Shown here in pieces: positions 11,163-29,679 of a stretch of 64,000 nucleotides of DNA. The position numbers were made by a program, and so were the translations under genes. The stretch's first letter is position 1; each line of letters opens with the position of its first letter. The DNA comes from an uncultured bacterium. GTDB taxonomy: Bacteria; Chloroflexota; Ktedonobacteria; Ktedonobacterales; JADMIN01. The stretch covers positions 113,448-177,447 of the forward strand of contig CAVTFE010000046.1 of NCBI GenBank assembly GCA_963733745.1. The letters are read 5' to 3'. Below the pieces are notes generated by a model. It made no database searches. It worked only from the letters and a program-made list of their open reading frames with translations, and had not been told where the DNA came from.

Positions 11163-11474
11163 TCTGCCTGTTCATTAGGAACGTTCTGGCTTCATGGGAT
11201 GTCATCCGCATTGAGATGACTCAAGAGTATACGATCTTGCTCCCTATCGCTTGCTCTCGGTCGGCGAATAGGGGAAATAGACTGCCATCAATTACAACTG
11301 CCTTGTGACGGCGCGCCTGGTTCCGAATGGTCATTGCTTTTGCTTGTTCGATCTGCTAGAGTTGCGTGAATTGCGTCTGACCAGGCAATCCCCAGTGAGT
11401 ACATACGCGTCTTGGTCAGCGAGATGGGGCGCTTCTCTCCAGGTGGGCGTCGAGAGATGGAGGTATGCCCTCAC

Positions 11475-11903
11475 ATGAACACATCTCGGCTTCGTCGTGT
11501 GTTAGTCATCGATGACGATCCAGCGTTGTTGACCGCCATTACCCGTGGCCTCGACCTCATCGGAGGATTCGATGTGCTGACCGCGCAGGATGGCGCGTCA
11601 GGACTCAACCAGTTCTTCTCAAACCGGCCTGATTGCGTTGTTGTTGATATTCGCATGCCCGGACTGAACGGATACCAATTCGTGCGGGCGCTGCGCGGTG
11701 ATCGCGAGACGGCGGAGACGCCGATTGTGCTGTTGAGCGCGCTGGTGCAGGATCGCGAGCAACTCGCAGGACTCTTGACCGGAGCGGACGCTTATCTCAT
11801 CAAACCCGTGAAGATCGTCGATCTGGTGAATGCGATTGATCGCGCGGTACAACTTTCCGCCGAGGAGCGCCAGGCGTATTTTCGCGGACTTTTCGAGCCA
11901 TAG
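11475..11903 (+). CDS. Single-domain response regulator (canonical Asp)
   Basis: LVIDDD, VVVDIRMPG, GADAYLIKP. Confidence 0.9.
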   Translation: MNTSRLRRVLVIDDDPALLTAITRGLDLIGGFDVLTAQDGASGLNQFFSNRPDCVVVDIRMPGLNGYQFVRALRGDRETAETPIVLLSALVQDREQLAGLLTGADAYLIKPVKIVDLVNAIDRAVQLSAEERQAYFRGLFEP

Positions 11904-11921
11904 GGCAGAGAGGGGATTCAC

Positions 11922-12374
11922 ATGGCAACGCAACGTGACTTTTCGTATCTGCTGGCGCTCGCTCGTCGCCTGTTTTCTCCGGCCAGGATGCGTGTGCTGA
12001 TCGTTGATCCAGATCTTGCCAGCGCGCACGAGCTGGCGGTCGCCTTGCCCAAACACTACGCCCCCATCGTCGTCGGTTCAGGCGCGGAAGCCTACGCCGC
12101 CATTCAGGCCGAACTACCCACGCTCATCGCGACAGAGATCCACCTGCCCGACGGCTCTGGTATTGATCTGCTCGCGCGTGTACACGCTGCCCCAGCGACA
12201 CGGCACATCTACCTCGTTGCGCTGGGAGCCAGGATGTCTATTCCCGAGAAAATCGCCGTCTTTCAGGCCGGAGCGGACGACTGCCTCGTCAAGCCTGTGG
12301 AGCCCGCGCGCTTTGTGAATCATGTCGAGCGGCTGGCGCGCTTCCATCAAGTGCTAGAGTCGTCCGCCAGCTAG
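11922..12374 (+). CDS. Atypical receiver-domain protein (Glu at phosphoacceptor position)
   Basis: VLIVD, PTLIATEIHLPDG, AGADDCLVKP. Confidence 0.8.
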   Translation: MATQRDFSYLLALARRLFSPARMRVLIVDPDLASAHELAVALPKHYAPIVVGSGAEAYAAIQAELPTLIATEIHLPDGSGIDLLARVHAAPATRHIYLVALGARMSIPEKIAVFQAGADDCLVKPVEPARFVNHVERLARFHQVLESSAS

Positions 12375-12422
12375 AGATCACCTGCTACAGCCACGGACTC
12401 TTCGGCGATATGGGAGCAAGGT

Positions 12423-14005
12423 ATGTCTATTTCATCCAATCCAGCACGTGCGCAACAGGCTGTCAGGCGTCGCTTGACGGTCTTTTACTCCACCGCGCTC
12501 CTCCTCATCGCGATGGTCGTTCTTTTCTACACGGGCGCGAGAACGTTTGTCCTCGAGCCGTTGCAAGAGAACCATGCGACCGTCGCGCTGCTTGCAGGAA
12601 ATGAGGAGCTTGACGCGCTCATCATCAGCAGAGATGCGCAGGAACTCGTCAACGCCACGGAAGCGAATGCGCGTGCGCAATATATCCCTGAGATGCGCAA
12701 AATATTAGACGCCTGGAACCGCGATCATGCGACGTTGAGTGGTGGAGATTTCTTCAGCTATCAGGATCTCAGCGAGGCCAGCGTCGCATATGAAGGTGCG
12801 AAATCCGACTACCAGGTAACAGTCGACCTTACAGCCAACCTGATAGCGCTCTATGACAGGCCAGAGGGGATTGGTGTCGCAAGCGTAGCTGGCGCGGTTG
12901 ACGCGCTTGTGGCGGTTGCACGATCGTTCATCACGAAGATCGACCCTATCGTCGGCATTGCCAACGCGGCGAATGACGTGGCGCAGGCGCAGGGAGTCCT
13001 TCTGGAACGCGTGTTGCTGGGCGCTATATTGGCGACCCTGCTCGCCATCGCGCTGCTGGTGTTCCGGCCTGCGATACGCCAGGTTGGTCTGAGTATCGCC
13101 GAGCTGGAGCGCGCGGAAGAGCAACAACGTGAGTTGGCGGCGCTCAAAGACCAGTTCATCATTGACGCGAACCACGAACTACGCACACCCATCATGGCGC
13201 TCTACAATAACCTGGAGCTTCTCTCCCTGGTCGAGCGCCGGGAGCGCGACGATCCTGCCTTGCGGAAGGATCTGATCCAGCAGGCGCTGACTTCTGGGGA
13301 TGGGTTGCTGCGCCTGCTGCGGAATGTGCTCGACGTGGGAGCGCTGGATAGTCAAAACCCACGTGTGACGCCAACGCGCGTGCATCTTGAGCCATTGGTC
13401 CGGCTGGCGCTCGAGACCTTCGACCCGCGCGAGATTGGCGAGGGGGAGCTGGCCCCAGGCGCGTACCAGGCCCGCGCCGTGACGATGAACATCCCAAGCG
13501 ACATGATAGTCTGGTGTGACGAGGGACGCCTGCGCCAGGTGCTGATCAATCTGATCTCCAACGCGCTCAAATACTCAGAGGCAGGCTCGCCAATCGTCAT
13601 CAGCGCGCAGGAATCGACGAAACCTCGATATCTGGCGCTCGTGGACGGCGACCGTCTGACGGCGAACTGCGTTACGCGCGAGTGAGCGTGCGCGACCAGG
13701 GCCTTGGCATTCCCCGTGAGTTCGCCCCCCAACTTTTCCAGCGCTTTGTACGCCTCCCACGCGACATCGCTGGTCCGGTGCGTGGGACAGGAGTGGGGCT
13801 GTACCTGTGTCGTACGTATGTCGAGGCGATGGGCGGCGAGATTGGCGTTGAGAGTTCTGGCGTCCCAGGCGAGGGCTCCACATTCAGCTTCACGCTGCCG
13901 TTCCCGGCGCCGGATACTCCAGAGCACGCGCCTAACGGAAATCACGACCAGAATCAGCTCTCCACGAGCGTGGTGGCCCCCTCTGACCGCCTAGTTCGGC
14001 CATAG
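12423..14005 (+). CDS. Membrane sensor histidine kinase (two TM helices, extracellular helical domain; frameshift near 13680)
   Basis: H-box ANHELRTP, N-box NLISNALKYS, DQGLGI, LFQRF, GTGVGLY. Confidence 0.9.
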
Positions 14006-14009
14006 TTGG

Positions 14010-14408
14010 TCAGTACATCATATGCGCATCGCGGTACCACTTAAACTCCAGGAGATTGTTCGAGGGGTCCACCAGGAAGAAGGTCTGATGCTCCTCGACC
14101 ATCCCCTCGAATCGGGTAAATGGTTCACGGAAGAAAGGTAGCTTGCGCTCGCAGGCGAGGCGCAGGAGGTCGTCGTACTCGCTGCGGTCTCGAAAGGTGA
14201 CGCCGAAATGGCGTGGATACATTTCCGGCTTGGACGCGATCTTGTCAGAATGGTGGCAAACGACCTGATCTCCGAAGAAGTCTAGCGTGATGCGATCGTC
14301 GTAGCGCCGGGCGAGTTTGCAGCCGAGTTTGGCCACGTAGAAGTCGTACGCCTCGTCCAGGTCGCGGGCAGGTATCGCCAGGTGAAAGACATTGTGGGTG
14401 TCACGCAT
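14010..14408 (-). CDS. VOC/glyoxalase-superfamily protein
   Basis: FHLAIP, DFFGDQVVCH, PRHFG, DPSNNLLEFK. Confidence 0.85.
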   Translation of the reverse strand: MRDTHNVFHLAIPARDLDEAYDFYVAKLGCKLARRYDDRITLDFFGDQVVCHHSDKIASKPEMYPRHFGVTFRDRSEYDDLLRLACERKLPFFREPFTRFEGMVEEHQTFFLVDPSNNLLEFKWYRDAHMMY

Positions 14409-14425
14409 GATGGGTCTCCTTCCCA

Positions 14426-15208
14426 CTAACTGATGTAGGCGTCGAGCGCCAGCAACGTGTCGCCGCGCAACCCCAAACGCAAGGTCTCCAGCGCGATAGG
14501 ATCACTTAACGCGATGTTGGCTAGATTGACATCTGGGCCTACTCGCTTGATGAAATAGGTCTGGAGTGACTTGTTGGGGGCCTCGAAGATGATCCTGTCT
14601 GCGCGCACGTCGGACGCAAGGATCTCTTCGATGAGGCCAAAGCGCAGGGCCCCATCAGGCCGGCAGATGCCGCTGGTGCCGCTTTCACGCGCCTCAGTGA
14701 TCACGTAGCGCGCGCCATGTTCCAGATCGGCGCGCATGTACTCGATCCAGCGCGCGGGGTGCAGATGTTCTGAGCGCTCGCTGTCTTTGTAGCCAACCTC
14801 GCTCAATACGGTGAAGTCGCGCGCGAACCGGCTGATGCAGCGTCCTTTCTCGCTTTTCGACAGATCAATCGTGCCGTCAGAAATCTCGACAACCCGGCAT
14901 CCGTGGCGCATACACAGATCATGGAACGCGTCTACTTTGCCCTGGCTGTAATACTTCTCGAAGAGGGTGCCTCCGAAAAAGTACTCCACCTCGTGCGCGC
15001 GCAGACAGGCGATCTTCTGTTCCAGATCGGCCGTGACCAGCGCCGTGCCCCAGCCAAACTTGATCATGTCGATGTGGTCGCTCGCGCTGGAGACGACATC
15101 CTCGAAGTAGCCTGTGGGCGCGCCATTATCGATGACGACCGTCAATCCGCTGGCGCGTGGCTTGCGCGTCCTAGGTGGCAGCGACAAATTCTCATGTGTC
15201 CACATCAT
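14426..15208 (-). CDS. comA: Phosphosulfolactate synthase (ComA family)
   Basis: RKPR..GLT.VID.G, IKFGWGT, GGTLFE, EISDG, SEVG.K, EARESG, IFEAP, VNLANI, LETLRLGLRGDT. Confidence 0.9.
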   Translation of the reverse strand: MMWTHENLSLPPRTRKPRASGLTVVIDNGAPTGYFEDVVSSASDHIDMIKFGWGTALVTADLEQKIACLRAHEVEYFFGGTLFEKYYSQGKVDAFHDLCMRHGCRVVEISDGTIDLSKSEKGRCISRFARDFTVLSEVGYKDSERSEHLHPARWIEYMRADLEHGARYVITEARESGTSGICRPDGALRFGLIEEILASDVRADRIIFEAPNKSLQTYFIKRVGPDVNLANIALSDPIALETLRLGLRGDTLLALDAYIS

Positions 15209-15303
15209 GGTTTCGGTCTCCTTCCGTGCGGCTCGCTAGGAACCCTATCCCTTCTACGACTCCATCGCTTCCTGTTTGCCTGTTGTGGTCCTTTCTCATG
15301 ATC

Positions 15304-16356
15304 CTAGTTGCGTGCGGTCGCTGGACACGGCAGCGGCGGGGCAGTTGGAGGAGGATCTTTCGATTGCGAGAATAGCCATGCCAGCGTTTCTGCCTGGTCA
15401 AGCGGGCTTTTGACAGCCCACAGATCGTGGCCGCGTCCGGGATACTCGGTGTAGCACGCTCCACCGCCATCCGCGCGAATTGCGCTGATCATTCGCCGTG
15501 AACCAGCCACAGGCACGGTTGTGTCGGCTGTGCCATGGAACGCCCAGATCGCCATATGTGTCAGCGCCGCGGCTGCATTTGGATCGCCTGACCCTGCGAT
15601 GGGCATAGCCGCCGCAAAGATGTTGGGCCACCGTTCCGCCGCCTCCCATGTCCCGAAAGCGCCCATGGAGATGCCGGTGACGTAGATGCGATCGCGGTCG
15701 ATGGCGGGATAGGCCTGCAGGGTGGAGGTGAGGATGGTCATCGCCATGGCGAGGGATACGCTTGGCTGGGATGCGAGGGTGTAGGAGCGGACCGAGGCAG
15801 GAACGTTCACCCAGCGGTTGCCCGCGGCCGCCTGCGGGACGAGCACGAAACTTGGCCACCGCTCCTGAGCGGCCACGTTGGTGAACGCCCGCACATAGTC
15901 CTGATTGAGAACGAGGTTCTTATTGTAGACAGAGGCCGCCTTTGCAAGGGCCACCTCGCCTCCACCGTGCAAGATCAGGACCAGCGGATAGCGTCCGGAC
16001 GGTGTGTAATCGGCTGGCGCATACAAGTAGTAGATCATGTGCGCCCCTGACGGATCGCTGTACATGTATGAGCCGAATGCCCCACGTGGGACTGACGCTG
16101 GCTTAAAGCGAGGAACTACGTTTGCTGGCGCCCGCGAGGTGGTTGCGGCCGGAGTCGCGCTCCCTTGGGCGGCGCGCGCAGCGGCGCTGTGTACCGGAGG
16201 CGCCCAGGCGCCCGACACGACGGCCGCCAGTATAGCGACGATCAGCGTCAGAGTGAGGTTCAGCGCCAGCGCCAACTGGAGTGTTATAGGAGCCTTTTTC
16301 GGGGTTTCGGTTCCCTCACCTGCGCGCCTCCTGCGTTTGGTCCTGAGTCTCATCAT
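15304..16356 (-). CDS. Membrane-anchored/secreted alpha/beta-hydrolase (esterase/peptidase-like)
   Basis: N-terminal hydrophobic helix; LHGGGE, GISMG nucleophile elbow, FHGTAD, GHD. Confidence 0.8.
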   Translation of the reverse strand: MMRLRTKRRRRAGEGTETPKKAPITLQLALALNLTLTLIVAILAAVVSGAWAPPVHSAAARAAQGSATPAATTSRAPANVVPRFKPASVPRGAFGSYMYSDPSGAHMIYYLYAPADYTPSGRYPLVLILHGGGEVALAKAASVYNKNLVLNQDYVRAFTNVAAQERWPSFVLVPQAAAGNRWVNVPASVRSYTLASQPSVSLAMAMTILTSTLQAYPAIDRDRIYVTGISMGAFGTWEAAERWPNIFAAAMPIAGSGDPNAAAALTHMAIWAFHGTADTTVPVAGSRRMISAIRADGGGACYTEYPGRGHDLWAVKSPLDQAETLAWLFSQSKDPPPTAPPLPCPATARN

Positions 16357-17707
16357 ATCGTTCGCTCGATCCGCATCGGTTCCAACTCCCGCTGCTCTGT
16401 GTCGCCGCTGGGATCGGCGGCGCGAGCGCCCACGGCAGTGTTATCGGCTTTGCCCGCAACACGTCTGGTTCTGCTTGCTGGCAGCGCAATGCGGCGCACC
16501 AAGGAATCACGCGCTGAGGCGAAGAAGGAGATGAAAACGGGAGGGAGCGGCGTCGAACGACCAACAAGGCGGCTGAGAATCGGCGTGCGCAGCAGCAGGA
16601 TGCTCACGAGTGATGAGCCAACCACAGCGAGTAACCATACCGCAAGTACACGCAAGGGCTCTGGCAATTCGGCTGGCGCCACCAGCGCAGGATGGGTCAG
16701 CGCGAAGGTGATAAACAGCGGATGCATCAGATAGACACCGAATGACGCGTCGGCGAGCAGCCGCCAGGCGCGACCTCCTCTGGGTTGCTGACCGTCTCCT
16801 GATCTCCTGGCCCAGCGACAGGCGACCCACCACAGAAACCCGATGACGCCGAGCGAGTAGAACAACATAACCGGCTGCAACACCGAGATCGCGTACACGG
16901 GATCTTCGTGCGCAATCCCAACGCTATACGCATAGTTACCCCAGTAGAGGAGCAGAGCCCCGACGAATACGAGCGCAATCAGCCTGCCGTGCCGCAACGC
17001 AAACGCGCGCAAGCGATCCAGGCGCAGCGCACATACCGCGCCGAGGACGAAGTAGAACTGATAGACTGGCGCGAGACGCGCGAGGTACTTGACCATCCAG
17101 GCGCCAGCGGCGGTGTCGGCGACGGGTGGGCGCTGGATCACATAAAAGTGCGCAGCCAGGATGAGCAGTTCGAGTGCGCACTGATGATGAGCGTGCGCCA
17201 TGGGTATCGATCAAAGAGCGGCAAGAGCCAGAGCACGAGCGGAAACAACAGGTAGAACTGAATGGTGAGCAAGATGTAGTACAGCTGATACGATGCGTCG
17301 CCTGTCACCAGGTCTGTCGCCCAGGTGGTCACGAAGCGCTGTGGTGAGACGAGCAGGCCGGCGAGCGCAAGGTAAATCGCGCTCCAGATGGCATAGGGAA
17401 CGACGACGCCCATGCCACGTTTGCGCCAGAATACACCGAGGTCGAACCGTTTGCCGACGTAGGTGTACACCAAAACGAGCGCGGTCGTGAACATGAAGAC
17501 TTCGCGGGTGAAGTGCATCGTTCCTTCGGCGGCATGCTGGAGAATGATCCCTGACTGCGCTTGGGCGAAGATGATCGTGCCCGCGAGCGTATGGACGGCG
17601 ACAACGCCGAACGCGGTGACCACCCGAAGCAGATCGAGTTCATGCACATGGGATCGCCCACTGCGGCGCTTCTGGTCAATCTGGCCAACGGTTTCACTTA
17701 CCAGCAT
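16353..17707 (-). CDS. Acyltransferase-3 family membrane O-acyltransferase (frameshift near 17180)
   Basis: ELDLLR...GVVAVH, FTREVF, PY.IWS, YQLYYILLTIQFYLLFP, SFGVYLMHP; about 10 TM segments. Confidence 0.85.
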
Positions 17708-17782
17708 TCCTGGGTGTTCCTCAACATCGAGATGAAAGCCTCCTCGCCTTACGAGCGCCCTCGTGCGCCTACTCAGGGATCG

Positions 17783-19287
17783 CTAGGGGACGGCAAGTGC
17801 GGCCGCCGCAGTCCGCAAGGGCTGGCGCTGAAGTTTGCCAAACGGGGTACGTGGAAGCTCTTTCACCGCCACGAAGTGTTCGGGAATTTTGTAGGCGCTC
17901 AGCCGTAACGCACACGCGCGCCGGAGGACCTCCGCCGTCGTCAGCGTCCATGGGGCGGCAGGTACGACATAGGCTATGACACGCTGTCCATACAGGAGAT
18001 CGGGCGCGCCGACTACCGCGACATCGCGCACATAGGATGTCGCCAGAATAGCTTCCTCGACTTCGCGCGGCGCGATATTTTCACCGCCTCGAATGATGAC
18101 GTCACGCTTCCTACCAACGACGTAGAGATAGCCGTCCTGATCGAAGTATCCCAGGTCGCCGGTATGGAACCAGCCATCAACGAAGGCGTCAGATGCCTGC
18201 CCATCGACATAGCGCGTGATCACGCTCGGTCCACAGACACAAATCTCTCCGATTGTTCCCACCGCGACTTCGCTTAGCGGCTCATCCTCGGGCCTAGTCC
18301 GAGACTGGCAGATACGAATCGCGACGCCGGTAGGCCGCCCTATGAGCCAGGTCTGCGCTCACCAGGAGGAACAGGGTTGGCGGCGATTTGGCTGGCGGCT
18401 TCCGAGAGGCCATAAGTCTCTACTACTGGCACACCGAAGCGCCGCTCGAAGGCCTCAAGGACGGTGACTGGGAGCGGCGCTGAGGCGCTGCGGACAAAGC
18501 GCAGGACGCCGGGAAGAAACGGTGGCTTCTCAGTCGTAAGCAGCATCGCCAGCATCGTCGGCACGGCGCTCGCCCAGGTGACCGCGTAGCGTTCCAGCGT
18601 CTCCCAGAAGTGGCTCCGGCTGAAGTGACGCGCGATGACCAAGGAGCTACCTGCGATGAGTGAAGCGCACAGGCTCACCACTGGCGCGTTGACATGAGAA
18701 AGAGGTAGGGCGGTGAAGCCACGATCGGCTGATGTAAGCTCATGCGAGGCGCGAATATGCTCAGCCGCCCAGACGATCTGTCGCGCATCGAGCAGGATAC
18801 CTTTTGGCTCACCCGTCGAGCCGGACGTGCGAAGGAAACAATGGCCCTCAGTTGGGGCTGGGGCTGGCGCGTCATTTGCGCCGAGTTCATTTTCTTGCGC
18901 CGCTGCGATTATTCGCTCAAAGTCGTCGCAGGTCAGGACCGTCGCATTGAGAAGCAACCCACAGTCTGTTTGACGTTCAACGATGAGGACGTCAGGAGTT
19001 ACCTGCTTAGCGAGACGCGCTTGTTCAAGGAGCGGCGCATCGGGCGAGATTGGGGCAAGTGTATGCCCTCCCGTCAGTGCGCTGAGCCAAACGATTGCGC
19101 TACACAATCCGTTCGACGTTGCGAGCAGAATACGGCGGGGCCTTGTCCCAAGCAAGCGGTGGACAACGCGTATCGCGCTGAGGGTCTGCGCATAGGTGAG
19201 AGTACGACCAGACTCTGCCTCAAGGAGGAAGATTCCTTCCGGATTCTGTTGTGCGTTGCGGAGGAGATGGTCATGCAAGGCAGGCAT
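17783..19287 (-). CDS. AMP-forming acyl-CoA ligase (ANL family; frameshift near 18340)
   Basis: TSGSTGEPKG, RFVRSASAPL, ETYGLSEAASQI, FHTGDLG, GRKRDVIIRGGENI, GKLQR. Confidence 0.9.
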
Positions 19288-21355: not shown

Positions 21356-21799
21356 ATGAACGCCTTCGAACGCACCGCGATTTCGCCGCGCGCCGTAGTC
21401 TTGATTATTGATCCTGATGACGCCGCCCGCGCCCACACCGCTCTACAGGTGCGACACCTATACGAGGTTGTTGGCGTAAGCAGTCTTCGGCAAGCGCACG
21501 CGCGCCTCACGCAGCAGGGAGATCGCGCCGTTCGCTTTGTTGTGCTCGAGCTGAATACCCCCGATGGCGATGGCCTCTGGCTCATTCGGCATCTCACTAC
21601 CGAAGCGGTCTTTCCCACTGGGACGCGTCCAACGGTCATCTGTCTGACCACACGCAACAGTGTGCAAGACAAAGTCGATGCCCTGCGCGCTGGCGCATCT
21701 GATTATCTGGTCAAGCCGGCGACACACATCCCACTGGCGTTGCGGCTCCAGCTGCTCGAACGCTTTGAGCGCCTTCGGCGTGATGAATGGACCGTGTAA
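21356..21799 (+). CDS. Atypical receiver-domain protein (Glu at phosphoacceptor position)
   Basis: VLIID, FVVLELNTPDG, DKVDALRAGASDYLVKP. Confidence 0.8.
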   Translation: MNAFERTAISPRAVVLIIDPDDAARAHTALQVRHLYEVVGVSSLRQAHARLTQQGDRAVRFVVLELNTPDGDGLWLIRHLTTEAVFPTGTRPTVICLTTRNSVQDKVDALRAGASDYLVKPATHIPLALRLQLLERFERLRRDEWTV

Positions 21800-21819
21800 A
21801 CCGAGGGGAGTTACGCGCC

Positions 21820-22266
21820 ATGGGTTCGAGATCGCGCTTTCGCATACTGGTCGTCGATGATAATCCTGAACTCCTGCGGTCCATACGCTTTGCGCTTGAA
21901 GCGCTGGGAAACTACGAGGTCGAGACGGCGCTCAATGGCGTCGAAGGATTGCAGCGCGCCGTTGACCTGCATCCCGATTGCGTCATCATTGACGTCAAGA
22001 TGCCAGGGATAAACGGCAATCAGCTGGTAACGGTGCTGCGTGGGGACCCGGAGACCGCCGGGATTCCCCTCATAATTTTGTCCGCGCTCGTCCAAGATGA
22101 CGATGTCTTGCGCGGCCACATTGCCGGGGTGGACCAATACCTATCAAAGCCCTTCGTCGTGACGGACTTGATCGCCGCCATTGAGCGCGTCACCCAGATG
22201 ACATCACAAGAGCGTGCGGCGCGGCTGCAACGACTCCTCGATGGAGACGGCGATGACCACAACTGA
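21820..22266 (+). CDS. Single-domain response regulator (canonical Asp)
   Basis: ILVVDD, PDCVIIDVKMPG, GVDQYLSKP. Confidence 0.9.
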   Translation: MGSRSRFRILVVDDNPELLRSIRFALEALGNYEVETALNGVEGLQRAVDLHPDCVIIDVKMPGINGNQLVTVLRGDPETAGIPLIILSALVQDDDVLRGHIAGVDQYLSKPFVVTDLIAAIERVTQMTSQERAARLQRLLDGDGDDHN

Positions 22267-23763
22267 ACAACTTCCCACCTGGGACGTGACCGACAGCGCT
22301 GATCAGGCGCTTGTGACTGGGGCTGTCGCAGTCGAGCAGGGATTCGTCCAGACCTACGAGCGGCAGCGCCAGTTGGGCATGCTGGCTATCCTGGCCCCTG
22401 CGTTCTTAGTGATCTCGACGCTCCTCATTCTTCTCTTCACGGTTTCTGCGCTTCTCTTTCCGAACGTACGCGTCTTTGGCGCAGCGCTTCCCCAGCCATT
22501 GCTGCTGGACGGGCCCTTTACTGCTAGCGGTGGCCTGTCACGCCGTAGCGATCATATTCATTCGCCGTGAACGTATCTTGCTCCCATCTGTCTTGGTCCT
22601 CACCGGAAGCGCGGGCGCCATCGTGGCGATCCTCGTGGTCTGGGTATGGACAAATGGGCTCGACATCTTGGTGATCGTTGGTTTGACCACATTGAGCACG
22701 GTCATTGTGATCGCTGGAGCTCTCGGCAGTCGTGCCTTGATCCTGGCCGTCACAGCGCTCATCAACGTCATTACTGTCATCATCATCGGCGGAGCGCTCA
22801 TAGGAAACGCGCTTGCCCCCTCCGTCGCCGGCGCGGTGCAGACACAGCTTGCGCTGTTCGCTCCTACCATCCTCATGGTCCAGTGGGCGATCGCCGTCAC
22901 GATGATCGCGCAGTGGCGCGCAATGCGGCGCACGCTCCGCGAGGTCGGCATCGCCTACGAGCGCGCGCAACAACTTGATGCGCTGAAAAATCAATTCATC
23001 TCTAGTGTCAATCACGAGCTCCGTACGCCGCTTGCGACACTCCAAACCTATATTCAGACCTGTCTGCTGGGGTGGGATCGCCTCGCGCCGCAGAAGATCC
23101 GCGACGCCTTGCAGCACGCCGATCGGGTGAGTCGCGCGCTCTCCGACCTGGTCAAGGATATCTTGAGCACGCGAACCATTGAACAAGATGGGCAAGCGTA
23201 TCATGCTCGGCTCTGTCAACCTACGTGAGGTCATTGACAAAGCGCTCACCCTCGTCGACCCCAGCGACGGCTCTACGGCGATGCGCGATCTCCATCTGCG
23301 TGTCGCCTCAGATCTCGTGGTCTGGGCCGAGGCGATCAGACTGCAGCAGATCATGACCAATCTCGTCTCGAATGCGCTGAAATACTCTTCTGAAGGAAGC
23401 CCCCTCACCATCGAGGCGCGCATACTCGAACCGGCAAGCCAGGGGCGGCGAGTCACGCGCAGGCTATCTAAGGTGGGCGCAGCCATAGCGCCTGCAATCG
23501 AGATCGTGGTGAGCGATAATGGACTTGGCATCCCGCCGGAGCAGATTCCGCTGCTGTTCCAGCGGTTTGTGCGGCTGCCGCGCGATCTAGCGTCGACGAC
23601 CACCGGCACGGGGCTGGGTTTGTACCTGTGTCGCACCTACATGGAGGCGATGGGAGGGCATATTTGGGTGGAGAGTAGCGGCGTTCCTGGTGAAGGATCG
23701 CGCTTCTATCTCCAACTGCAAACGCCGCCAACTCGTCGATCGGTGATCTCACAAGCCCGCTAG
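22253..23763 (+). CDS. Multi-pass membrane sensor histidine kinase (frameshifts near 22515 and 23190)
   Basis: About six TM segments; VNHELRTP, NLVSNALKYS, DNGLGI, LFQRF, GTGLGLY. Confidence 0.85.
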
Positions 23764-23817
23764 TCGCCTCGAAGCGACACCGTGTATCGCAAGCCAGGGA
23801 AGGAAACTGAGGCTCTC

Positions 23818-25409
23818 ATGGCGCGCGCGCTCCCACCCCGACACCCTGGACTCCCCTATATCGGCGACACGGTCCCGCTGCTCACGAATACGCTTGCCTA
23901 TGTCACGGCGCAGCGGCGTCGCTATGGGGATCTGTGGGGTACGCAGTTTATCGGCCAGCGCGCAGCTGTGGCGATTGGCGCAGAGGCGCAGCGTCAGATA
24001 CTCATGAACAATGCGCAGTTTCCCGCCGCGCCTGGCTACGAGTTCGTCAAGCCGCTGCTGGGGCATTCGCTCTTCGACATGGATGGCGACGAGCATACCC
24101 ACGAGCGACGCGCCATGACGCCGGCCTTCTTGAGTAGCCAACACGCCGCATATCTCACGCGACTCGATGATGCATTTTGAAGAAGGCGCTCAGCGGGTGG
24201 GGGAAATCTGGGGAACGCGTCTTTTATCGGGACGCGCTCGCCGTGATGTTCGCGTTTTCCTGTGCGATTACCATTGGGCTCGATACAAGCCCACAGGCCA
24301 GCGCCGCCGATCAAGGTTTCTTGCGCCACTGGCTCGCCATGCAGGGCGGCCTCCTCAATCCGTTACGGATCGATGTCGTAGGGCTTCCCTGGCGACGCTC
24401 ACTTGCCGCGCGGCGGTGGCTTGACCGCTATCTTCTTGATCTGATAGCACAGCGGCGCGCTGCTGCCTCATCTACTGTGACGCCTGCCGCGTCCGCCGAT
24501 ATGCTTGACCTCCTCCTGCAGACCCAACGGGCCCGCCAGGATAGTACAACTGACAGTGGCGCGGCGCCACTGAGTGATCGGCAGATCGTTGACCATATCA
24601 TCTTGCTGCTCTTCGCCGGCTACGAGACGACAGCGGGCGCGGTTTCCTGGCTACTCATCGAGTTGCTGCGCCAGCCACCGCAAATCCTCGCGCGTGTGCG
24701 TGAGGAAGTCCACGCCGAAGACCATGACGCTCCGGTCACTCTCGAGGGAATGAAGAGCACACGGTATCTGGATGCGGTGATCAAGGAGACATTGCGCCTG
24801 CATCCAGCACAGCACGTGAGCATTCGCGGCGTCAGCGCGCCATGGTCCTATGCCGGTCGGGTCGTGCCAGCAGGCTGGAGCGTCATGATCGCGCCGATGT
24901 ACACGCACCGAATGCCTGAGTACTTCGCAGACCCCGAGCGATTCGACCCAGAGCGGTTCCTGCCACCACGTGAGGAGGACCGGGCGCACCCCTATGCGCT
25001 GGTCGAGTTCGGCGGTGGGGCGCACGCCTGTCTGGGGTCAGGCATCGCCAAATTGGTGATGAAGGCGATGGTGACCAAGTTGTTGCGCCGCTATGAACTG
25101 ACCCTTGTCCCTGGGCAGGACTTCACCCCCGTCTTCATTCCCGCTGGCCGTCCTCGCGGCGGCGCACGCGTCCGCTACTCACAGGTATCGTGGGCTCCAG
25201 ACGTCACAGAGCAGGAGACAGACCTCAAGCGCGCGACAGATGTGCGTAGAATGAGCCATGATGGCGCCAGACGTACGAGACAAGGCCGTAACTGGACCCT
25301 GCTCGGTGTGGCGCTCGTCGCTGGCGCGCTGGCCGTGGCGCTCGTCGTGATCCTTCTCAAGAGGCGCGGAATGAGCAGCAGACACATCACAAGGATGCCC
25401 GGTGTTTGA
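23818..25409 (+). CDS. Cytochrome P450 (frameshift near 24177) with C-terminal hydrophobic extension
   Basis: AGYETT I-helix, ETLR (ExxR), PERF, FGGGAHACLG heme-Cys. Confidence 0.9.
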
Positions 25410-26595
25410 CTGGCGATCCATCGCAACTACATTGCGCCCCGGTCGTGAGACCGAGAGTCAACGCCGGCAAGCGGCGCGCGCCCAGGCGATCGAGCCACTG
25501 CTCCGCACGGCGACCGCGACGTTGGTCGCAGCCAACCCGTCATTCGAGCGCTATGTCAGCCAGAGTGTGTTCTTCGCCACGGCGTGCGCGCCGCAGACGC
25601 TCGTCGATGATGATGCGGCCCTGCTGGCCTATCTCATCTGGTGGATCTTCATCACCGATACCTATATTGATCAGGAGGACCGGCCATTTCTGTATAACGC
25701 CGAACAGATTGAGCGTACGCTGTTATCGTGCCTGCCAACCCTCGTGCGCCGCCATGGCGAGAGCGAACTTCGCCGCATTGGCTGGCCGTCTCTCCCGCCT
25801 GCCACCTGGCTGGATACCGAGTCAGCGCTCCCGATAGAGGGTGCAAATAAGCTGGGTGAGGAGCGCGTCTTTAGCGACGCCTTGACGCAGTGGCTGGAGA
25901 GGGTCGCTCAGCGTGGTGTTGGTCTGCGGCGGATCGCACGGCAGATCGCGCGCTGCATCGGCTCGATGCGCCAGGAGCTCGCCTGGTCCTGCGCGCTGAG
26001 CCAACGTGCCCCGCGTTCGCGCCTGCCAACACTTGACCAGTATCTTCTGGTCGCTGCGCGTACTACTGGATTGCACCCCACCGCTGCGCTCGTCGCCTCG
26101 CTGGCATCCCTGTCTGGTCAGGCGTATCGGCGCGCATGGCTCCTGGTCGAGCGCGCGGCGCCCATAATCCGCTTAGCCAATGATCTCGCGTCCGATGACA
26201 CAGATGGGATGGAGAGCCATCTCACTGCGCTCCACGCGGCGCACTGCGAACAGGCAGGCGCATTTGCGCTGGCGCATGGCTTGACGACCGAGGATAAGCG
26301 CTATGCGCGCTCAGTAGTCGCAAGCGCGCTGCAGCGGCGATTACGCGCCTTTGCCGCATCACTTGAAGATGTAGCAGGGAGTGAAGGGCCGTCCACCGAT
26401 GCCCTCTCGCAATTCGTCACGCGTACGCTCGCAACGTCGCTGGCTGCCTATGGTGACGGAAGCGATTATGTGACGTCTGAGCCACTGCGTCTGGTCGAGC
26501 CATCCCTTCAAGCTATCGGAGCCGACTCCGATGCCGAGTTTACGCCTTATTTCGACCTTTCCGTCGGGTATGCTGACCAGCCGATTGCCCATTGA
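25402..26595 (+). CDS. Class I terpene synthase/cyclase-like protein
   Basis: WIFITDTYIDQED (Asp-rich motif), YL...R..G, IRLANDLASDDTD (NSE/DTE-like motif); start overlaps the P450 stop. Confidence 0.7.
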   Translation: MFDWRSIATTLRPGRETESQRRQAARAQAIEPLLRTATATLVAANPSFERYVSQSVFFATACAPQTLVDDDAALLAYLIWWIFITDTYIDQEDRPFLYNAEQIERTLLSCLPTLVRRHGESELRRIGWPSLPPATWLDTESALPIEGANKLGEERVFSDALTQWLERVAQRGVGLRRIARQIARCIGSMRQELAWSCALSQRAPRSRLPTLDQYLLVAARTTGLHPTAALVASLASLSGQAYRRAWLLVERAAPIIRLANDLASDDTDGMESHLTALHAAHCEQAGAFALAHGLTTEDKRYARSVVASALQRRLRAFAASLEDVAGSEGPSTDALSQFVTRTLATSLAAYGDGSDYVTSEPLRLVEPSLQAIGADSDAEFTPYFDLSVGYADQPIAH

Positions 26596-26784: not shown

Positions 26785-29439
26785 TCATCCTCCCTCAGGC
26801 CCAAGCTCCTGGCGCGCCAAGGCAGTAGCGGCATCGAGGGTGAACGCCTGGCCTTCCGCGAAGAAGATCGCCAGCGCGCTTTCGTCAACCGCGGCGCGCA
26901 AGCTATCCAGATCACGTTGGCGCAGATCACGCTCAGCGGGGTCGAGTAGACGCGGCGCAACGTCGCGGTGGGCTACAGCCGCTCCATGCAGACGCGCCGC
27001 ACGTTCCAGCGCGCCGCGCTGACAGGCGAGGGTTCCCACTCGCTCGACCAGCCACCACAGATACTCGCTTGCGTCTGTTCGATGTACGAGCGCTGCCAGC
27101 GCCTGCGCCAGGTCGCCCAGCGCCGATGTGACGTCTCCGTGGGCGAGAGCAAGGCTGGCGCGAAAGTAGCGGACGCGGGCGGCGCCGACGACGCCGCCGA
27201 GCGCGTCAAAGGTATCGACAGCCTCATCCAGGTAGGCGCCAGCGACCGTCGCATCACCCAGACGCCAGTAGGCGCGTCCCAGTGTCCAGGCGCAGTTCGC
27301 TACCCAGTAATCGCTGCGTTCCAGCGCACAGCATCGATACGCTGGCGTTGTCACCTCAATGGCGCGCAGCGGTTCGTCCAGAACGACCAGCGCCTCACCG
27401 AGACCGTTCCAGGTGGCGGCGCGGGCAATTTCACTCTCACCCACCGCACGACTCAGCGCAAGGCTCTCCTCATAATAGGCCAGCGCCTCACGTGGCCGGC
27501 CGGTATCGACGTAGAGATTGCCGAGATTGAATAAGGGAAAGATCATGCCCTGTCGCTCGCCGGTCTCACGATACAGGGTCAGGCACTCCTCATACAGCGC
27601 GCGCGCACGCTCGTAGTCATGGAGCTGCGTCACGACGTTGGCCAAGTTGCCCAAAGCGCCAGCGATGTGATTTCTGTCTCCCAACGCGCGCCGCAGCGCG
27701 AGCGCCGCTTCAGCCGCCTCGCACGCGCGATCCAAGCGATCGAGCCGATACGCCATCACCAGCGCGCCGGTCCATGCTTGGGCGAGTTGCTCGCGCTCCT
27801 CCGGACTTCTGGGGGTATCCGCGCGCGCGATGAAGCGCTCCAGCCAGTCCAGACCCTCACGAAACTGGGCGCGCGTATCCCAATAGCGGCGTAGCCGGCT
27901 CACCATCCGCAATCCGTGGTCGATGGCTCCCGTCTCCCATGCCCATGCCAAAGCGGCGCGCACGTTCTCGTATTCCAGTTGCAAAAGCGCGAAAAGCCCC
28001 TCAGGCTGATCCGTCACGCGCACGTCAATGCGCTGGGTAAGGTCGAGGAAATACTCGGCATGGCGCCGTCGCGCCTCATTCCACTCCCCAGTGGCGCGCA
28101 ATTGCTCCTGCGCATAGGCTTGTAAGGTGACGAGCTGGGTGTAGCGCTGTGTGTCCCCGGTATCCGTGCGGCGCAGGAGGTGGGCGTCGACGAGCATGGC
28201 GAGGTCTGCCAACAGCGCCTCTGTTGTCCATTCGGTCACAGCCGCGACTGCGTCCACACTCGCGCCACCCACAAACACGCCCAGCCAGCGAAACAGCCGT
28301 TGTCTTTCTGCGCTCAGCAGGTTATAGCTCCACGCAATAGTCGAGCGCATCGTACGCTGATGATCGGCGAGATCCTGTGGACCATCCGTCAGAATCTCCA
28401 GAAATGACGGTTGCGCCACCCATTCCTCCAGGCGTCGCAATCCCACATGTCTGACGCGTGCGGCGGCCAACTCGATGGCGAGCGGCAGCCCGTCCAGCCG
28501 CGCGCAGATGTCAGCGACCAGGCGCCCTTCTTCCAGGGTTGTAAGGGTGAAATCAGGTTGTGCCGCGACCGCGCGCTCGACGAACAGCGCCACCGCTGGG
28601 ACAGTGCGCAGGTCATCGAGAGAGTCTAGCTGTGTGGAATCGGGGAGGGCGAGTGGCGTGACAGGATAGCAGCGCTCACCACGCACATTCAAGGGCCAGC
28701 GGCTCGTTACGAGCGCTTTGACTCCCAGACTGCCGATGAGCAGCTCTAACACGATACGTGCGGCGGAGAGCACTTGCTCGAAATTATCCAATACCAATGT
28801 GACGTGTCGCTGTCGTAACGTGTGAATCACCGTGTCGCGTAGGGACAGACCTCCGCTCTCCTGAATGCCGAGCGCCCCAGCGATGACTGGCAGCGCGCGG
28901 TCAGGATCGTGCACTGGAATGAGATCAACAAAGACAACCTCTTGTCGCCGCTCCTGCCGCAGCCGCATCGCCACACGCAATGCCAGGCGTGTCTTTCCGA
29001 CACCAGCGGCGCCCGTCAACGTGAGCAGCCGGGTCGTTGGATCATCCAACATGCTCAGCAGCGCGTCCTCGTCGCGCTCGCGCCCAAAGAGCGGCGTCAA
29101 TGGAACAGGGAGATTTCCCTCGACTCGCGCAATGCCGCCTGCGCTTCCGGAGGGCGCCGTGTCAATTGCAGCGGCCTGCTGGTCTGCGCCTCTCTCTGCC
29201 CAGCGCGCTTGCCGCGCCGCCACATCAAAGATCGCAGCCTCCTCTGGACTCAGTTTGAATGCGGCTACGAGCAATTCCACGGTGCCTCTTTGGGGCGCCT
29301 GGGTCAGTCCACGCTCCAGCATGCTGATCGCTTCAGGACTCACGCCTGCGCGTCCGGCGAGTTCTTCTTGCGTGAGGCGCCGCTCACGCCGGTAGCGACG
29401 GAGTAGCGTGGCGAAGCCGGGCGCATCGTTGCCTGCCAT
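26785..29439 (-). CDS. XRE-HTH / STAND (NB-ARC-like) ATPase / TPR regulator
   Basis: LTQEELA..AGVS...IS.LERG; Walker A GAAGVGKT; Walker B LVLDNFEQ; LDGLPLAIELAAAR; C-terminal TPRs. Confidence 0.9.
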   Translation of the reverse strand: MAGNDAPGFATLLRRYRRERRLTQEELAGRAGVSPEAISMLERGLTQAPQRGTVELLVAAFKLSPEEAAIFDVAARQARWAERGADQQAAAIDTAPSGSAGGIARVEGNLPVPLTPLFGRERDEDALLSMLDDPTTRLLTLTGAAGVGKTRLALRVAMRLRQERRQEVVFVDLIPVHDPDRALPVIAGALGIQESGGLSLRDTVIHTLRQRHVTLVLDNFEQVLSAARIVLELLIGSLGVKALVTSRWPLNVRGERCYPVTPLALPDSTQLDSLDDLRTVPAVALFVERAVAAQPDFTLTTLEEGRLVADICARLDGLPLAIELAAARVRHVGLRRLEEWVAQPSFLEILTDGPQDLADHQRTMRSTIAWSYNLLSAERQRLFRWLGVFVGGASVDAVAAVTEWTTEALLADLAMLVDAHLLRRTDTGDTQRYTQLVTLQAYAQEQLRATGEWNEARRRHAEYFLDLTQRIDVRVTDQPEGLFALLQLEYENVRAALAWAWETGAIDHGLRMVSRLRRYWDTRAQFREGLDWLERFIARADTPRSPEEREQLAQAWTGALVMAYRLDRLDRACEAAEAALALRRALGDRNHIAGALGNLANVVTQLHDYERARALYEECLTLYRETGERQGMIFPLFNLGNLYVDTGRPREALAYYEESLALSRAVGESEIARAATWNGLGEALVVLDEPLRAIEVTTPAYRCCALERSDYWVANCAWTLGRAYWRLGDATVAGAYLDEAVDTFDALGGVVGAARVRYFRASLALAHGDVTSALGDLAQALAALVHRTDASEYLWWLVERVGTLACQRGALERAARLHGAAVAHRDVAPRLLDPAERDLRQRDLDSLRAAVDESALAIFFAEGQAFTLDAATALARQELGPEGG

Positions 29440-29679
29440 GCTCTCCCTCCGTCGCCCTGCACGCGTTCCTGCGGCCATTGCGGCCATTGTAGCACTGCTC
29501 CCCAGCGCCATCTCAGTTGTTCACCGGTGACTCACCCATGCCATCTTCCGCCCACTTTTGCGGGTGATAGTACGGATCCTCCGTGGTGTGCGCGTCATGC
29601 CCAAGGCATACTGCCTCAAAGCGGCGAGCGGCAACCTTCCGGCGGAGTGACGCGTTGACAGCGACTGGAGTGTTGGGCG

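What the first reader, a model, noticed from the sequence alone, without database searches (positions are those of the whole stretch)
21356..26595. Signalling cassette coupled to a P450 + terpene synthase pair: possible terpenoid signal circuit
Seen: five co-directional genes (pseudoreceiver, receiver, ~6-TM kinase, P450, class I terpene synthase-like) with gaps of about 20, -14, 54 and -8 bp. The kinase input is almost entirely membrane-embedded. The synthase motifs are non-canonical (DTYID, NDLASDDTD). Established: synthase + P450 pairs make oxidised terpenoids, and multi-TM kinases often sense hydrophobic ligands. Inference: the locus may both make and sense a terpenoid signal, like an autoinducer module, or modify a terpenoid under kinase control. 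No prenyl-diphosphate synthase or class II cyclase is adjacent, so the substrate must come from elsewhere.
Basis: partly seen in the sequence, partly recalled or inferred. Interest (0 to 1): 0.7.

Follow-up and report, generated by a model that had tools for sequence, protein, structure and literature searches.

The report
Kinase-coupled diterpenoid operon of soil Ktedonobacteria
In a group of uncultured soil bacteria, genes for terpene-building enzymes repeatedly sit directly behind a membrane-embedded sensor kinase and are inherited with it, and this copy adds a P450, so these cells likely make an oxidised diterpenoid that the kinase would sense as a self-made signal, a kind of bacterial signal I did not find described.

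Summary
The five genes and the four gaps are as stated, but the kinase has two frameshifts and the P450 one; close relatives are intact, so these are likely assembly errors. The last gene has a class I terpene synthase fold (Z 26.2). Its odd motifs keep the metal ligands and resemble those of the active synthase Sat1646.

The missing substrate source was found: the same genome has a paralogous receiver-kinase-class II cyclase-synthase cassette. This synthase family and that cyclase occur in exactly the same 10 of 169 genomes of the order, and in all 10 one or both sit behind a kinase of one 6-TM family. A same-genus genome keeps kinase-cyclase and kinase-P450-synthase as a split pathway. P450-partnered synthases and their kinases each form their own clade.

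Against a dedicated circuit: most modules of this kinase family (55 of 68) have no such neighbour, neither receiver has an output domain, and no ligand, product or transcript is shown.

Verdict: a real, conserved, kinase-linked diterpenoid pathway. Self-made signal sensing is the leading reading but is inferred (about 0.45).

The parts
21356..21799 (+). Stand-alone atypical receiver (Glu in the phospho-Asp column, no output domain)
   Evidence: PF00072 46.8 bits; alignment. A related atypical receiver leads the cassette in G017, G023 and G062; that column is D in two of them and E in one.
21820..22266 (+). Stand-alone receiver with Asp58 and a short C-terminal helix, no DNA-binding domain
   Evidence: PF00072 82.8 bits; 54% identical to the receiver of the C14 cassette.
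22253..23763 (+). Histidine kinase with six membrane helices and short loops, HisKA and HATPase_c; two frameshifts in this assembly
   Evidence: intact orthologue P0118, 504 aa, 93%.
23818..25409 (+). CYP120-like cytochrome P450 with ExxR and heme Cys motifs and a lineage-specific hydrophobic C-terminal tail; one frameshift in this assembly
   Evidence: PF00067; best solved relative 2ve3 CYP120, E 1.4e-54; intact in G001; tail in 5 near orthologues, one predicted membrane segment.
25402..26595 (+). Class I terpene synthase-fold enzyme of a family partnered with class II diterpene cyclases
   Evidence: PF19086 over cut-off; model pLDDT 79.8; Z 26.2 to LrdC 6oh8 (rmsd 3.0, 285 aligned) and 9kgb (rmsd 3.5, 300 aligned); D86, D90, R257, N260, D261 invariant in 39 rows; dN/dS 0.24 against G001.

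Best explanation
The five genes are one variant of a conserved Ktedonobacterales unit in which terpene enzymes are encoded behind a six-helix membrane kinase; the class I synthase likely converts a bicyclic diterpenyl diphosphate made by the class II cyclase encoded on another contig, the P450 likely oxidises the product, and the kinase would sense that fat-soluble molecule in the membrane and pass phosphate to the stand-alone receiver. Shown: gene content, folds, intact catalytic motifs, co-occurrence and co-inheritance. Inferred: substrate, product, ligand identity, one transcript, phosphotransfer and any feedback. The downstream target of the receiver is unknown.
For: (1) Class I fold, with labdane-related diterpene synthases LrdC and Sat1646 among the top, statistically tied rows. 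The family profile's best solved hits include Stt4548 and Sat1646, which take copalyl diphosphate (abstract listing). (2) The genome's only class II cyclase hit and both PF19086 hits lie in kinase cassettes. The cyclase keeps DxDD and is closest to copalyl diphosphate synthases. Two polyprenyl synthases are present. (3) Synthase family and cyclase occur in the same 10 of 169 genomes, including three where they are unlinked; in 10 of 10 at least one follows a family kinase. (4) G001 has kinase-cyclase with the synthase cleanly missing, and kinase-P450-synthase as its only PF19086 hit. (5) P450-partnered synthases form a clade (98/95) and their kinases form a clade (100/100) that is sister, at 92/84, to the cyclase-linked kinases. 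Kinase and synthase distances correlate over 9 pairs, r 0.90. (6) 13 of 68 kinase-found modules have a cyclase, synthase or P450 within 2.5 kb against 1.25% expected, with 7 label changes on the tree. (7) The sensor has no soluble input domain, and its best fold matches are 6-TM anchors of a diguanylate cyclase and of adenylyl cyclases (Z 12.9 and 12.6, borderline), a design shared with the autoinducer receptor CqsS (PMC4821796). (8) Membrane positions 145 and 200 differ by clade (E/E in 8 of 8 cyclase-linked, G/Q in 9 of 9 of the P450 clade).
Against: 55 of 68 kinase-found modules have no cyclase, synthase or P450 hit in the stretch held, some cut by contig ends. A kinase without terpene neighbours (L102) nests among the cyclase-linked ones, and forcing it out is rejected at p 0.037. 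Without the extra orthologues the window kinase was unresolved. Co-inheritance of neighbours is expected for any old operon, so r 0.90 does not show ligand specificity. Close P450 relatives occur with no kinase or synthase nearby (L060, L061), and L059 has P450-synthase with no kinase end in the 230 bases upstream. Kinase-linked P450s are not clustered on the P450 tree beyond shuffles. The window synthase is on a long branch (1.39) and has Asp265 where 30 of 35 relatives have Tyr or Phe, so activity may be altered. Neither receiver has an output domain. The 6-TM fold match is within the range that can mean a common helical bundle. The divergent kinase-P450-synthase triple (P0119, P0066, P0014) rests on equal source and contig length, not on DNA that I read.
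Confidence: 0.45

Rival explanations
1. The enzymes make an oxidised diterpenoid for the membrane or for defence, and the kinase senses something else (membrane state or an outside cue). It only gates production or shares a promoter, with no sensing of the product.
For: The kinase family is multicopy (up to 5 copies per genome at E 1e-70) and mostly without terpene genes. The genome has no squalene-hopene cyclase hit apart from the class II diterpene cyclase (genome 69% complete), so a diterpenoid could serve as a membrane lipid (inference). All chemical evidence for the best explanation fits this rival equally.
Against: Cyclases, synthases and P450s were joined to different kinase clades several times, P450s often between receiver and kinase, which is more natural if the enzymes shape the kinase input. 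No transcription factor is in the unit to regulate the enzymes.
Confidence: 0.3
2. The P450, and perhaps the divergent synthase, serve as accessory input or signal-removing parts of the kinase, as proposed for CvnE P450s of actinobacterial conservons. They would bind or destroy a terpenoid made by the C14 cassette rather than build a new one.
For: CvnE P450s accompany kinases that lack an extracytoplasmic sensor domain (PMC13343842, abstract and passages). Receiver-P450-kinase and P450-receiver-kinase units without a synthase exist (7 of 76 modules). The window P450 has a membrane tail. The synthase branch is long.
Against: In G001 this synthase is the only class I partner found for the cyclase, and it keeps all invariant metal and diphosphate ligands under purifying selection. 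P450s of this clade also occur away from kinases. The P450 tail evolves near neutrally (dN/dS 0.95 on 75 codons). No roadblock or GTPase gene is in the unit.
Confidence: 0.15
3. The kinase pair and the terpene genes are only old neighbours with no functional link.
For: In G051 the cyclase, and in G027 and G030 the synthase, lie away from any family kinase. Kin are not independent, and most linked cases belong to one kinase branch.
Against: Overlapping or near-zero gaps; linkage kept through reordering in 10 of 10 genomes; a separate kinase clade (G027, G030) also carries the cyclase; enrichment far above 1.25%.
Confidence: 0.1

Closest known systems
Salinispora sat/terp1 labdane-related diterpenoid cluster (class II SaCPS, class I SaDTS/Sat1646, P450 CYP1051A1; PMC9814573, passages seen)
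   Same: Class II plus class I plus P450 logic; same class I fold (Z 25.5, rmsd 3.1, 268 aligned to 7e4n); similar motifs (DWQVD and NDLASYERD against DTYID and NDLASDDTD).
   Different: Only 14-17% identity. The cyclase is on another contig, the P450 is CYP120-like, and the enzymes are tied to receiver-kinase genes, which the passages seen do not mention for the sat cluster.
CqsA/CqsS-type autoinducer systems (CqsS 6-TM receptor: PMC4821796, abstract and section 9 seen; CqsA as a PLP-dependent synthase is recalled)
   Same: A kinase whose input is six short-looped membrane helices, beside an enzyme able to make a fat-soluble small molecule.
   Different: Terpene enzymes instead of a CqsA-type synthase. 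No CqsS family hit among the top NCBIfam rows. A non-hybrid kinase with two stand-alone receivers. Ligand sensing is untested.
Conservons / actinobacterial G protein systems with CvnE P450 (PMC13343842, abstract and passages seen)
   Same: A multicopy, lineage-restricted kinase module, a subset of which carries an accessory P450, with no extracytoplasmic sensor domain.
   Different: No roadblock, DUF742 or small GTPase gene; a canonical HisKA kinase with receivers; terpene cyclases and synthases as further cargo.
ComQXPA (recalled) and the prenyltransferase-cyclase peptide cassettes in earlier scan notes
   Same: An isoprenoid-fold enzyme next to a multi-TM kinase.
   Different: No conserved small peptide gene found in 31 intergenic stretches of 8 loci. 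The enzyme has DxxxD plus NSE motifs and hits PF19086, not PF00348.

Membership tests
Class I terpene synthase | All-helical class I fold | tested here: met
   Z 26.2, rmsd 3.0, 285 aligned to 6oh8; all listed top rows are class I fold enzymes.
Class I terpene synthase | Literal DDxxD motif | tested here: not met
   DTYID. First and last Asp are invariant in 39 rows; active Sat1646 also lacks the second Asp.
Class I terpene synthase | (N/D)Dxx(S/T/G)xxx(E/D) motif | tested here: met
   N260-D261-S264-D268; definition from PMC11469919.
Class I terpene synthase | Mg-dependent conversion of a prenyl diphosphate | not testable with these tools
   Needs an assay.
Labdane-related diterpenoid pathway | Class II cyclase with DxDD available in the same genome | tested here: met
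   G000:C14, DGDD, PF13243 54.4 bits; same 10 of 169 genomes as the synthase family.
Labdane-related diterpenoid pathway | GGPP supply | tested here: inconclusive
   Two PF00348 genes; chain length not determined.
Labdane-related diterpenoid pathway | Class I enzyme accepts the bicyclic diphosphate | not testable with these tools
   Inferred from co-occurrence and from G001.
CqsS-type autoinducer circuit | 6-TM short-loop sensor on a histidine kinase | tested here: met
   H, N and G boxes present.
CqsS-type autoinducer circuit | Sensor homologous to CqsS | tested here: inconclusive
   No Pfam hit on the membrane part in 8 members; fold matches to cyclase anchors at Z 12.3-12.9; MASE-type look-alikes of mixed families. 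No direct comparison with CqsS was made.
CqsS-type autoinducer circuit | Adjacent CqsA-type synthase | tested here: not met
   Neighbours are a P450 and a terpene synthase.
CqsS-type autoinducer circuit | Kinase responds to the product of the adjacent enzyme | not testable with these tools
   Needs biochemistry.
Conservon / AGPS | cvnA-D core (kinase, roadblock, DUF742, GTPase) | tested here: not met
   The five genes are two receivers, kinase, P450 and synthase.
ComQXPA-like peptide pheromone | Small conserved Trp peptide gene | tested here: not met
   No small ORF shared between genera; the only matches were between the window and G001, over the opposite-strand neighbour gene.

The most novel reading that the evidence does not exclude
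Uncultured Ktedonobacterales use diterpenoids as self-made signals. A lineage-specific family of 6-TM kinases has repeatedly recruited cyclases, synthases and P450s, and paralogous cassettes in one cell make and read chemically distinct dialects: a cyclase-synthase product for one kinase and a P450-oxidised product for the other.
Probability: 0.3. Interest if true: 0.85.

Novelty: new variant of a known kind. Interest (0 to 1): 0.62.

Why it matters
Bacterial terpenoids are mostly known as products, seldom with a receptor. Here candidate synthases and a candidate receptor come as matched sets, in two versions within one genome, so ligand-receptor pairing can be tested directly in E. coli without culturing the organism. 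The locus also gives an uncharacterised class I synthase family (45 representatives at 50% clustering, two fused to class II cyclases) and a candidate ligand class for an orphan 6-TM sensor. Nine paper searches listed nothing on this unit; the library lacks most subscription journals.

Tried and rejected
Metagenome scan with the window synthase: 144 pattern matches, none confirmed. Alignments A1 and A2 were too diverse to seed a locus scan. P450-kinase fusion suspected in G004: rejected, they are separate ORFs. Small peptide gene: none conserved. Promoter and terminator scan: at chance level, 2 against 1.7 and 5 against 3.2. No RNA holder listed. Complex prediction of the kinase core dimer with the P450 and heme: no answer, score 0.00, not evidence either way. 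First clade test on kinases was mis-specified (two nested proteins of unknown context left out; p 1e-6); the repeat with them included gave p 0.037. The first kinase tree was a quick tree in place of an unfinished careful one. Rows left out of trees: three short kinase pieces, 25 rows for size and 14 more. The census filter dropped three rows as other kinases, one of them (L062) wrongly, so 75 modules became 76 by hand. The fold search used the whole kinase model; the membrane domain was not searched alone. No paper held the word tolypothrichol, so the chemistry of the 9kgb match is unknown to me. The sensor was not found with one query in 0 of 23 genomes of family f3 or in the other sampled families of the phylum. 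No earlier scan note matched the synthase by sequence.
Full report
Observation. The window is part of contig C46 of a 6.1-Mb, 69%-complete genome; named homologues are Ktedonobacterales. The five genes, their order and the gaps 20, -14, 54 and -8 are confirmed. The kinase has two frameshifts and the P450 one. An intact 504-aa kinase at 93%, an intact P450 in G001 and contigs of related strains indicate assembly errors; other genes of the window also appear split. Against G001 the synthase has dN/dS 0.24 and the two P450 parts 0.05 and 0.21, so neither looks like a decaying gene.

The synthase. PF19086 is over its cut-off. The model (pLDDT 79.8) matches class I terpene synthases, with LrdC and 9kgb at Z 26.2 and Sat1646 at 25.5; rows within 1 Z are tied and include sesquiterpene synthases, so the fold does not fix the substrate. 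A profile of 39 relatives finds Stt4548, 9kgb and Sat1646 first. D86, D90, R257, N260 and D261 are invariant. The second Asp varies (21 of 35 D). Sat1646 binds metal with DWQVD and NDLASYERD (PMC9814573 passages), and the NSE definition allows a final Asp (PMC11469919 passages). Asp265 in place of the family's aromatic residue and a long branch leave room for altered activity.

The substrate. Contig C14 carries receiver, 6-TM kinase, class II cyclase (DGDD; nearest solved relatives are copalyl diphosphate synthases) and a paralogous synthase. These cassettes hold the genome's only PF13243 hit and both PF19086 hits. Over 169 genomes of the order, the synthase family and this cyclase are found in the same 10. 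Orders seen: atypical receiver-receiver-kinase-cyclase-synthase in G017, G023 and G062; receiver-kinase-synthase-cyclase in G012; kinase end-cyclase-synthase in G002; receiver-kinase-synthase in G051, with the cyclase elsewhere beside an O-methyltransferase; kinase-cyclase in G027 and G030, with the synthase elsewhere. G001, of the same genus, has kinase-cyclase with the synthase missing between two aligned blocks, plus kinase end-P450-synthase as its only PF19086 hit (76% complete). This is the best evidence that the window-type synthase takes the cyclase product from another locus. It is an inference from gene content.

The P450 variant is old. Synthases known or inferred to lie beside a P450 form one clade (98/95). 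One such pair was read as DNA (L059, P450 60%). Others rest on equal source and contig length: kinase P0119 (60%), P450 P0066 (63%) and synthase P0014 (34%) at 8,094 bases; P0067 and P0021 at 4,526; P0120 and P0035 at 8,828; P0141, P0061 and P0005 at 21,249. The matching kinases form a clade (100/100) sister at 92/84 to the cyclase-linked kinases, with one kinase lacking terpene neighbours nested among the latter (forcing it out gave p 0.037). The P450 is CYP120-like. Its hydrophobic tail is confined to near orthologues and weakly constrained.

The kinase family. Receiver plus 6-TM kinase is a multicopy unit: 21 of 45 genomes of the family at E 1e-70. The sensor was found in 12 of 301 genomes of the phylum, all in three families of the order. 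Of 76 modules examined, 18 have a cyclase, synthase or P450 within 2.5 kb (with L062 added back). Counting only modules found by kinase searches, 13 of 68 do (7 of 53, whose query was itself terpene-linked, and 6 of 15 new ones), against 1.25% for a random place in the own genome. The label changes 7 times on the tree, so independent events are few but more than one. Most modules have no such neighbour, and that is the main fact against a dedicated circuit. The sensor has no Pfam match. Look-alikes are MASE-type membrane sensors of mixed families. The only non-kinase fold matches listed are the membrane parts of ImcA (Z 12.9, rmsd 3.3, 197 aligned) and adenylyl cyclases (Z 12.6, rmsd 4.2, 213 aligned), borderline for helical bundles. 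PMC4821796 (abstract and section 9) shows that such anchors share a 6-TM short-loop design with the autoinducer receptor CqsS.

Mechanism. Most likely: GGPP, then a bicyclic diphosphate by the C14 cyclase, then a diterpene by the window synthase, then oxidation by the P450; the product partitions into the membrane and is read by the co-inherited kinase, which phosphorylates Asp58 of the stand-alone receiver, with the Glu-type receiver as a modulator. Every arrow is inferred. The chemistry is better supported (about 0.75 that the pair makes an oxidised terpenoid) than the sensing (0.45 overall). Rivals: the kinase senses something else (0.30); the P450 is an accessory or signal-removing part, as proposed for CvnE (0.15; PMC13343842); no link (0.10). 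A peptide-pheromone reading, suggested by earlier scan notes, found no conserved small ORF.

Known and new. The chemistry works like the Salinispora class II-class I-P450 cluster; class II cyclases commonly pair with class I synthases (PMC9814783 passages). The signalling anatomy works like CqsA/CqsS but fails membership, and it is not a conservon. I did not find the combination in nine searches, nor Ktedonobacteria in a large bacterial diterpene screen (PMC12009305 passages). No supplements were read; gene-neighbourhood tables in those of PMC9814783 and PMC12009305 could bear on novelty. Verdict: real and conserved, a new variant of known kinds, interest 0.62.

Noticed in passing
L062:1651-4363 (G004), L063:7652-10826 (G051), L147, L166, L151, L150, L121: CYP120-like P450 genes sit between or right beside the receiver and the 6-TM kinase with no terpene synthase, in several separate kinase clades.
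   Followed up: partly
P0045, P0047 (812 aa): Natural fusions of a class II cyclase to this class I family (DSLLD and DTLLD), candidates for bifunctional diterpene synthases.
   Followed up: partly
window 26785-29511 (-): HTH-AAA-TPR (STAND-type) regulator convergent on the synthase, in the same place in G001; not seen at this position in the other cassettes.
   Followed up: no
window about 11400-14005 (+) and G000 C39, C48, C65, C94, C97: Further receiver-kinase modules in the own genome; several come with Glu-type receivers. C65 is followed by genes that look like a nitroreductase and an isoprenylcysteine methyltransferase-type protein (by eye, not scanned).
   Followed up: partly
L182:8495-11217 (G051:C8): Class II cyclase followed directly by an O-methyltransferase, about 145 kb from the kinase-synthase pair.
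   Followed up: partly
L173:2961-3067 (G001:C252): Clean absence of the class I synthase from the C14-type cassette in the same-genus genome.
   Followed up: yes
window 14010-19287 (-): Co-directional run of AMP-binding enzyme, acyltransferase 3, S9-type hydrolase, phosphosulfolactate synthase ComA and glyoxalase genes, two apparently split by frameshifts.
   Followed up: no
L034-L050: Distant class I relatives in other Chloroflexota; 15 of these 17 loci have a class II cyclase hit within the 1.5-kb flanks.
   Followed up: no
L018:5370-6683 (G000:C14): An HNH-type (IscB-like, by eye) ORF ends 45 bases before the receiver of the C14 cassette.
   Followed up: no
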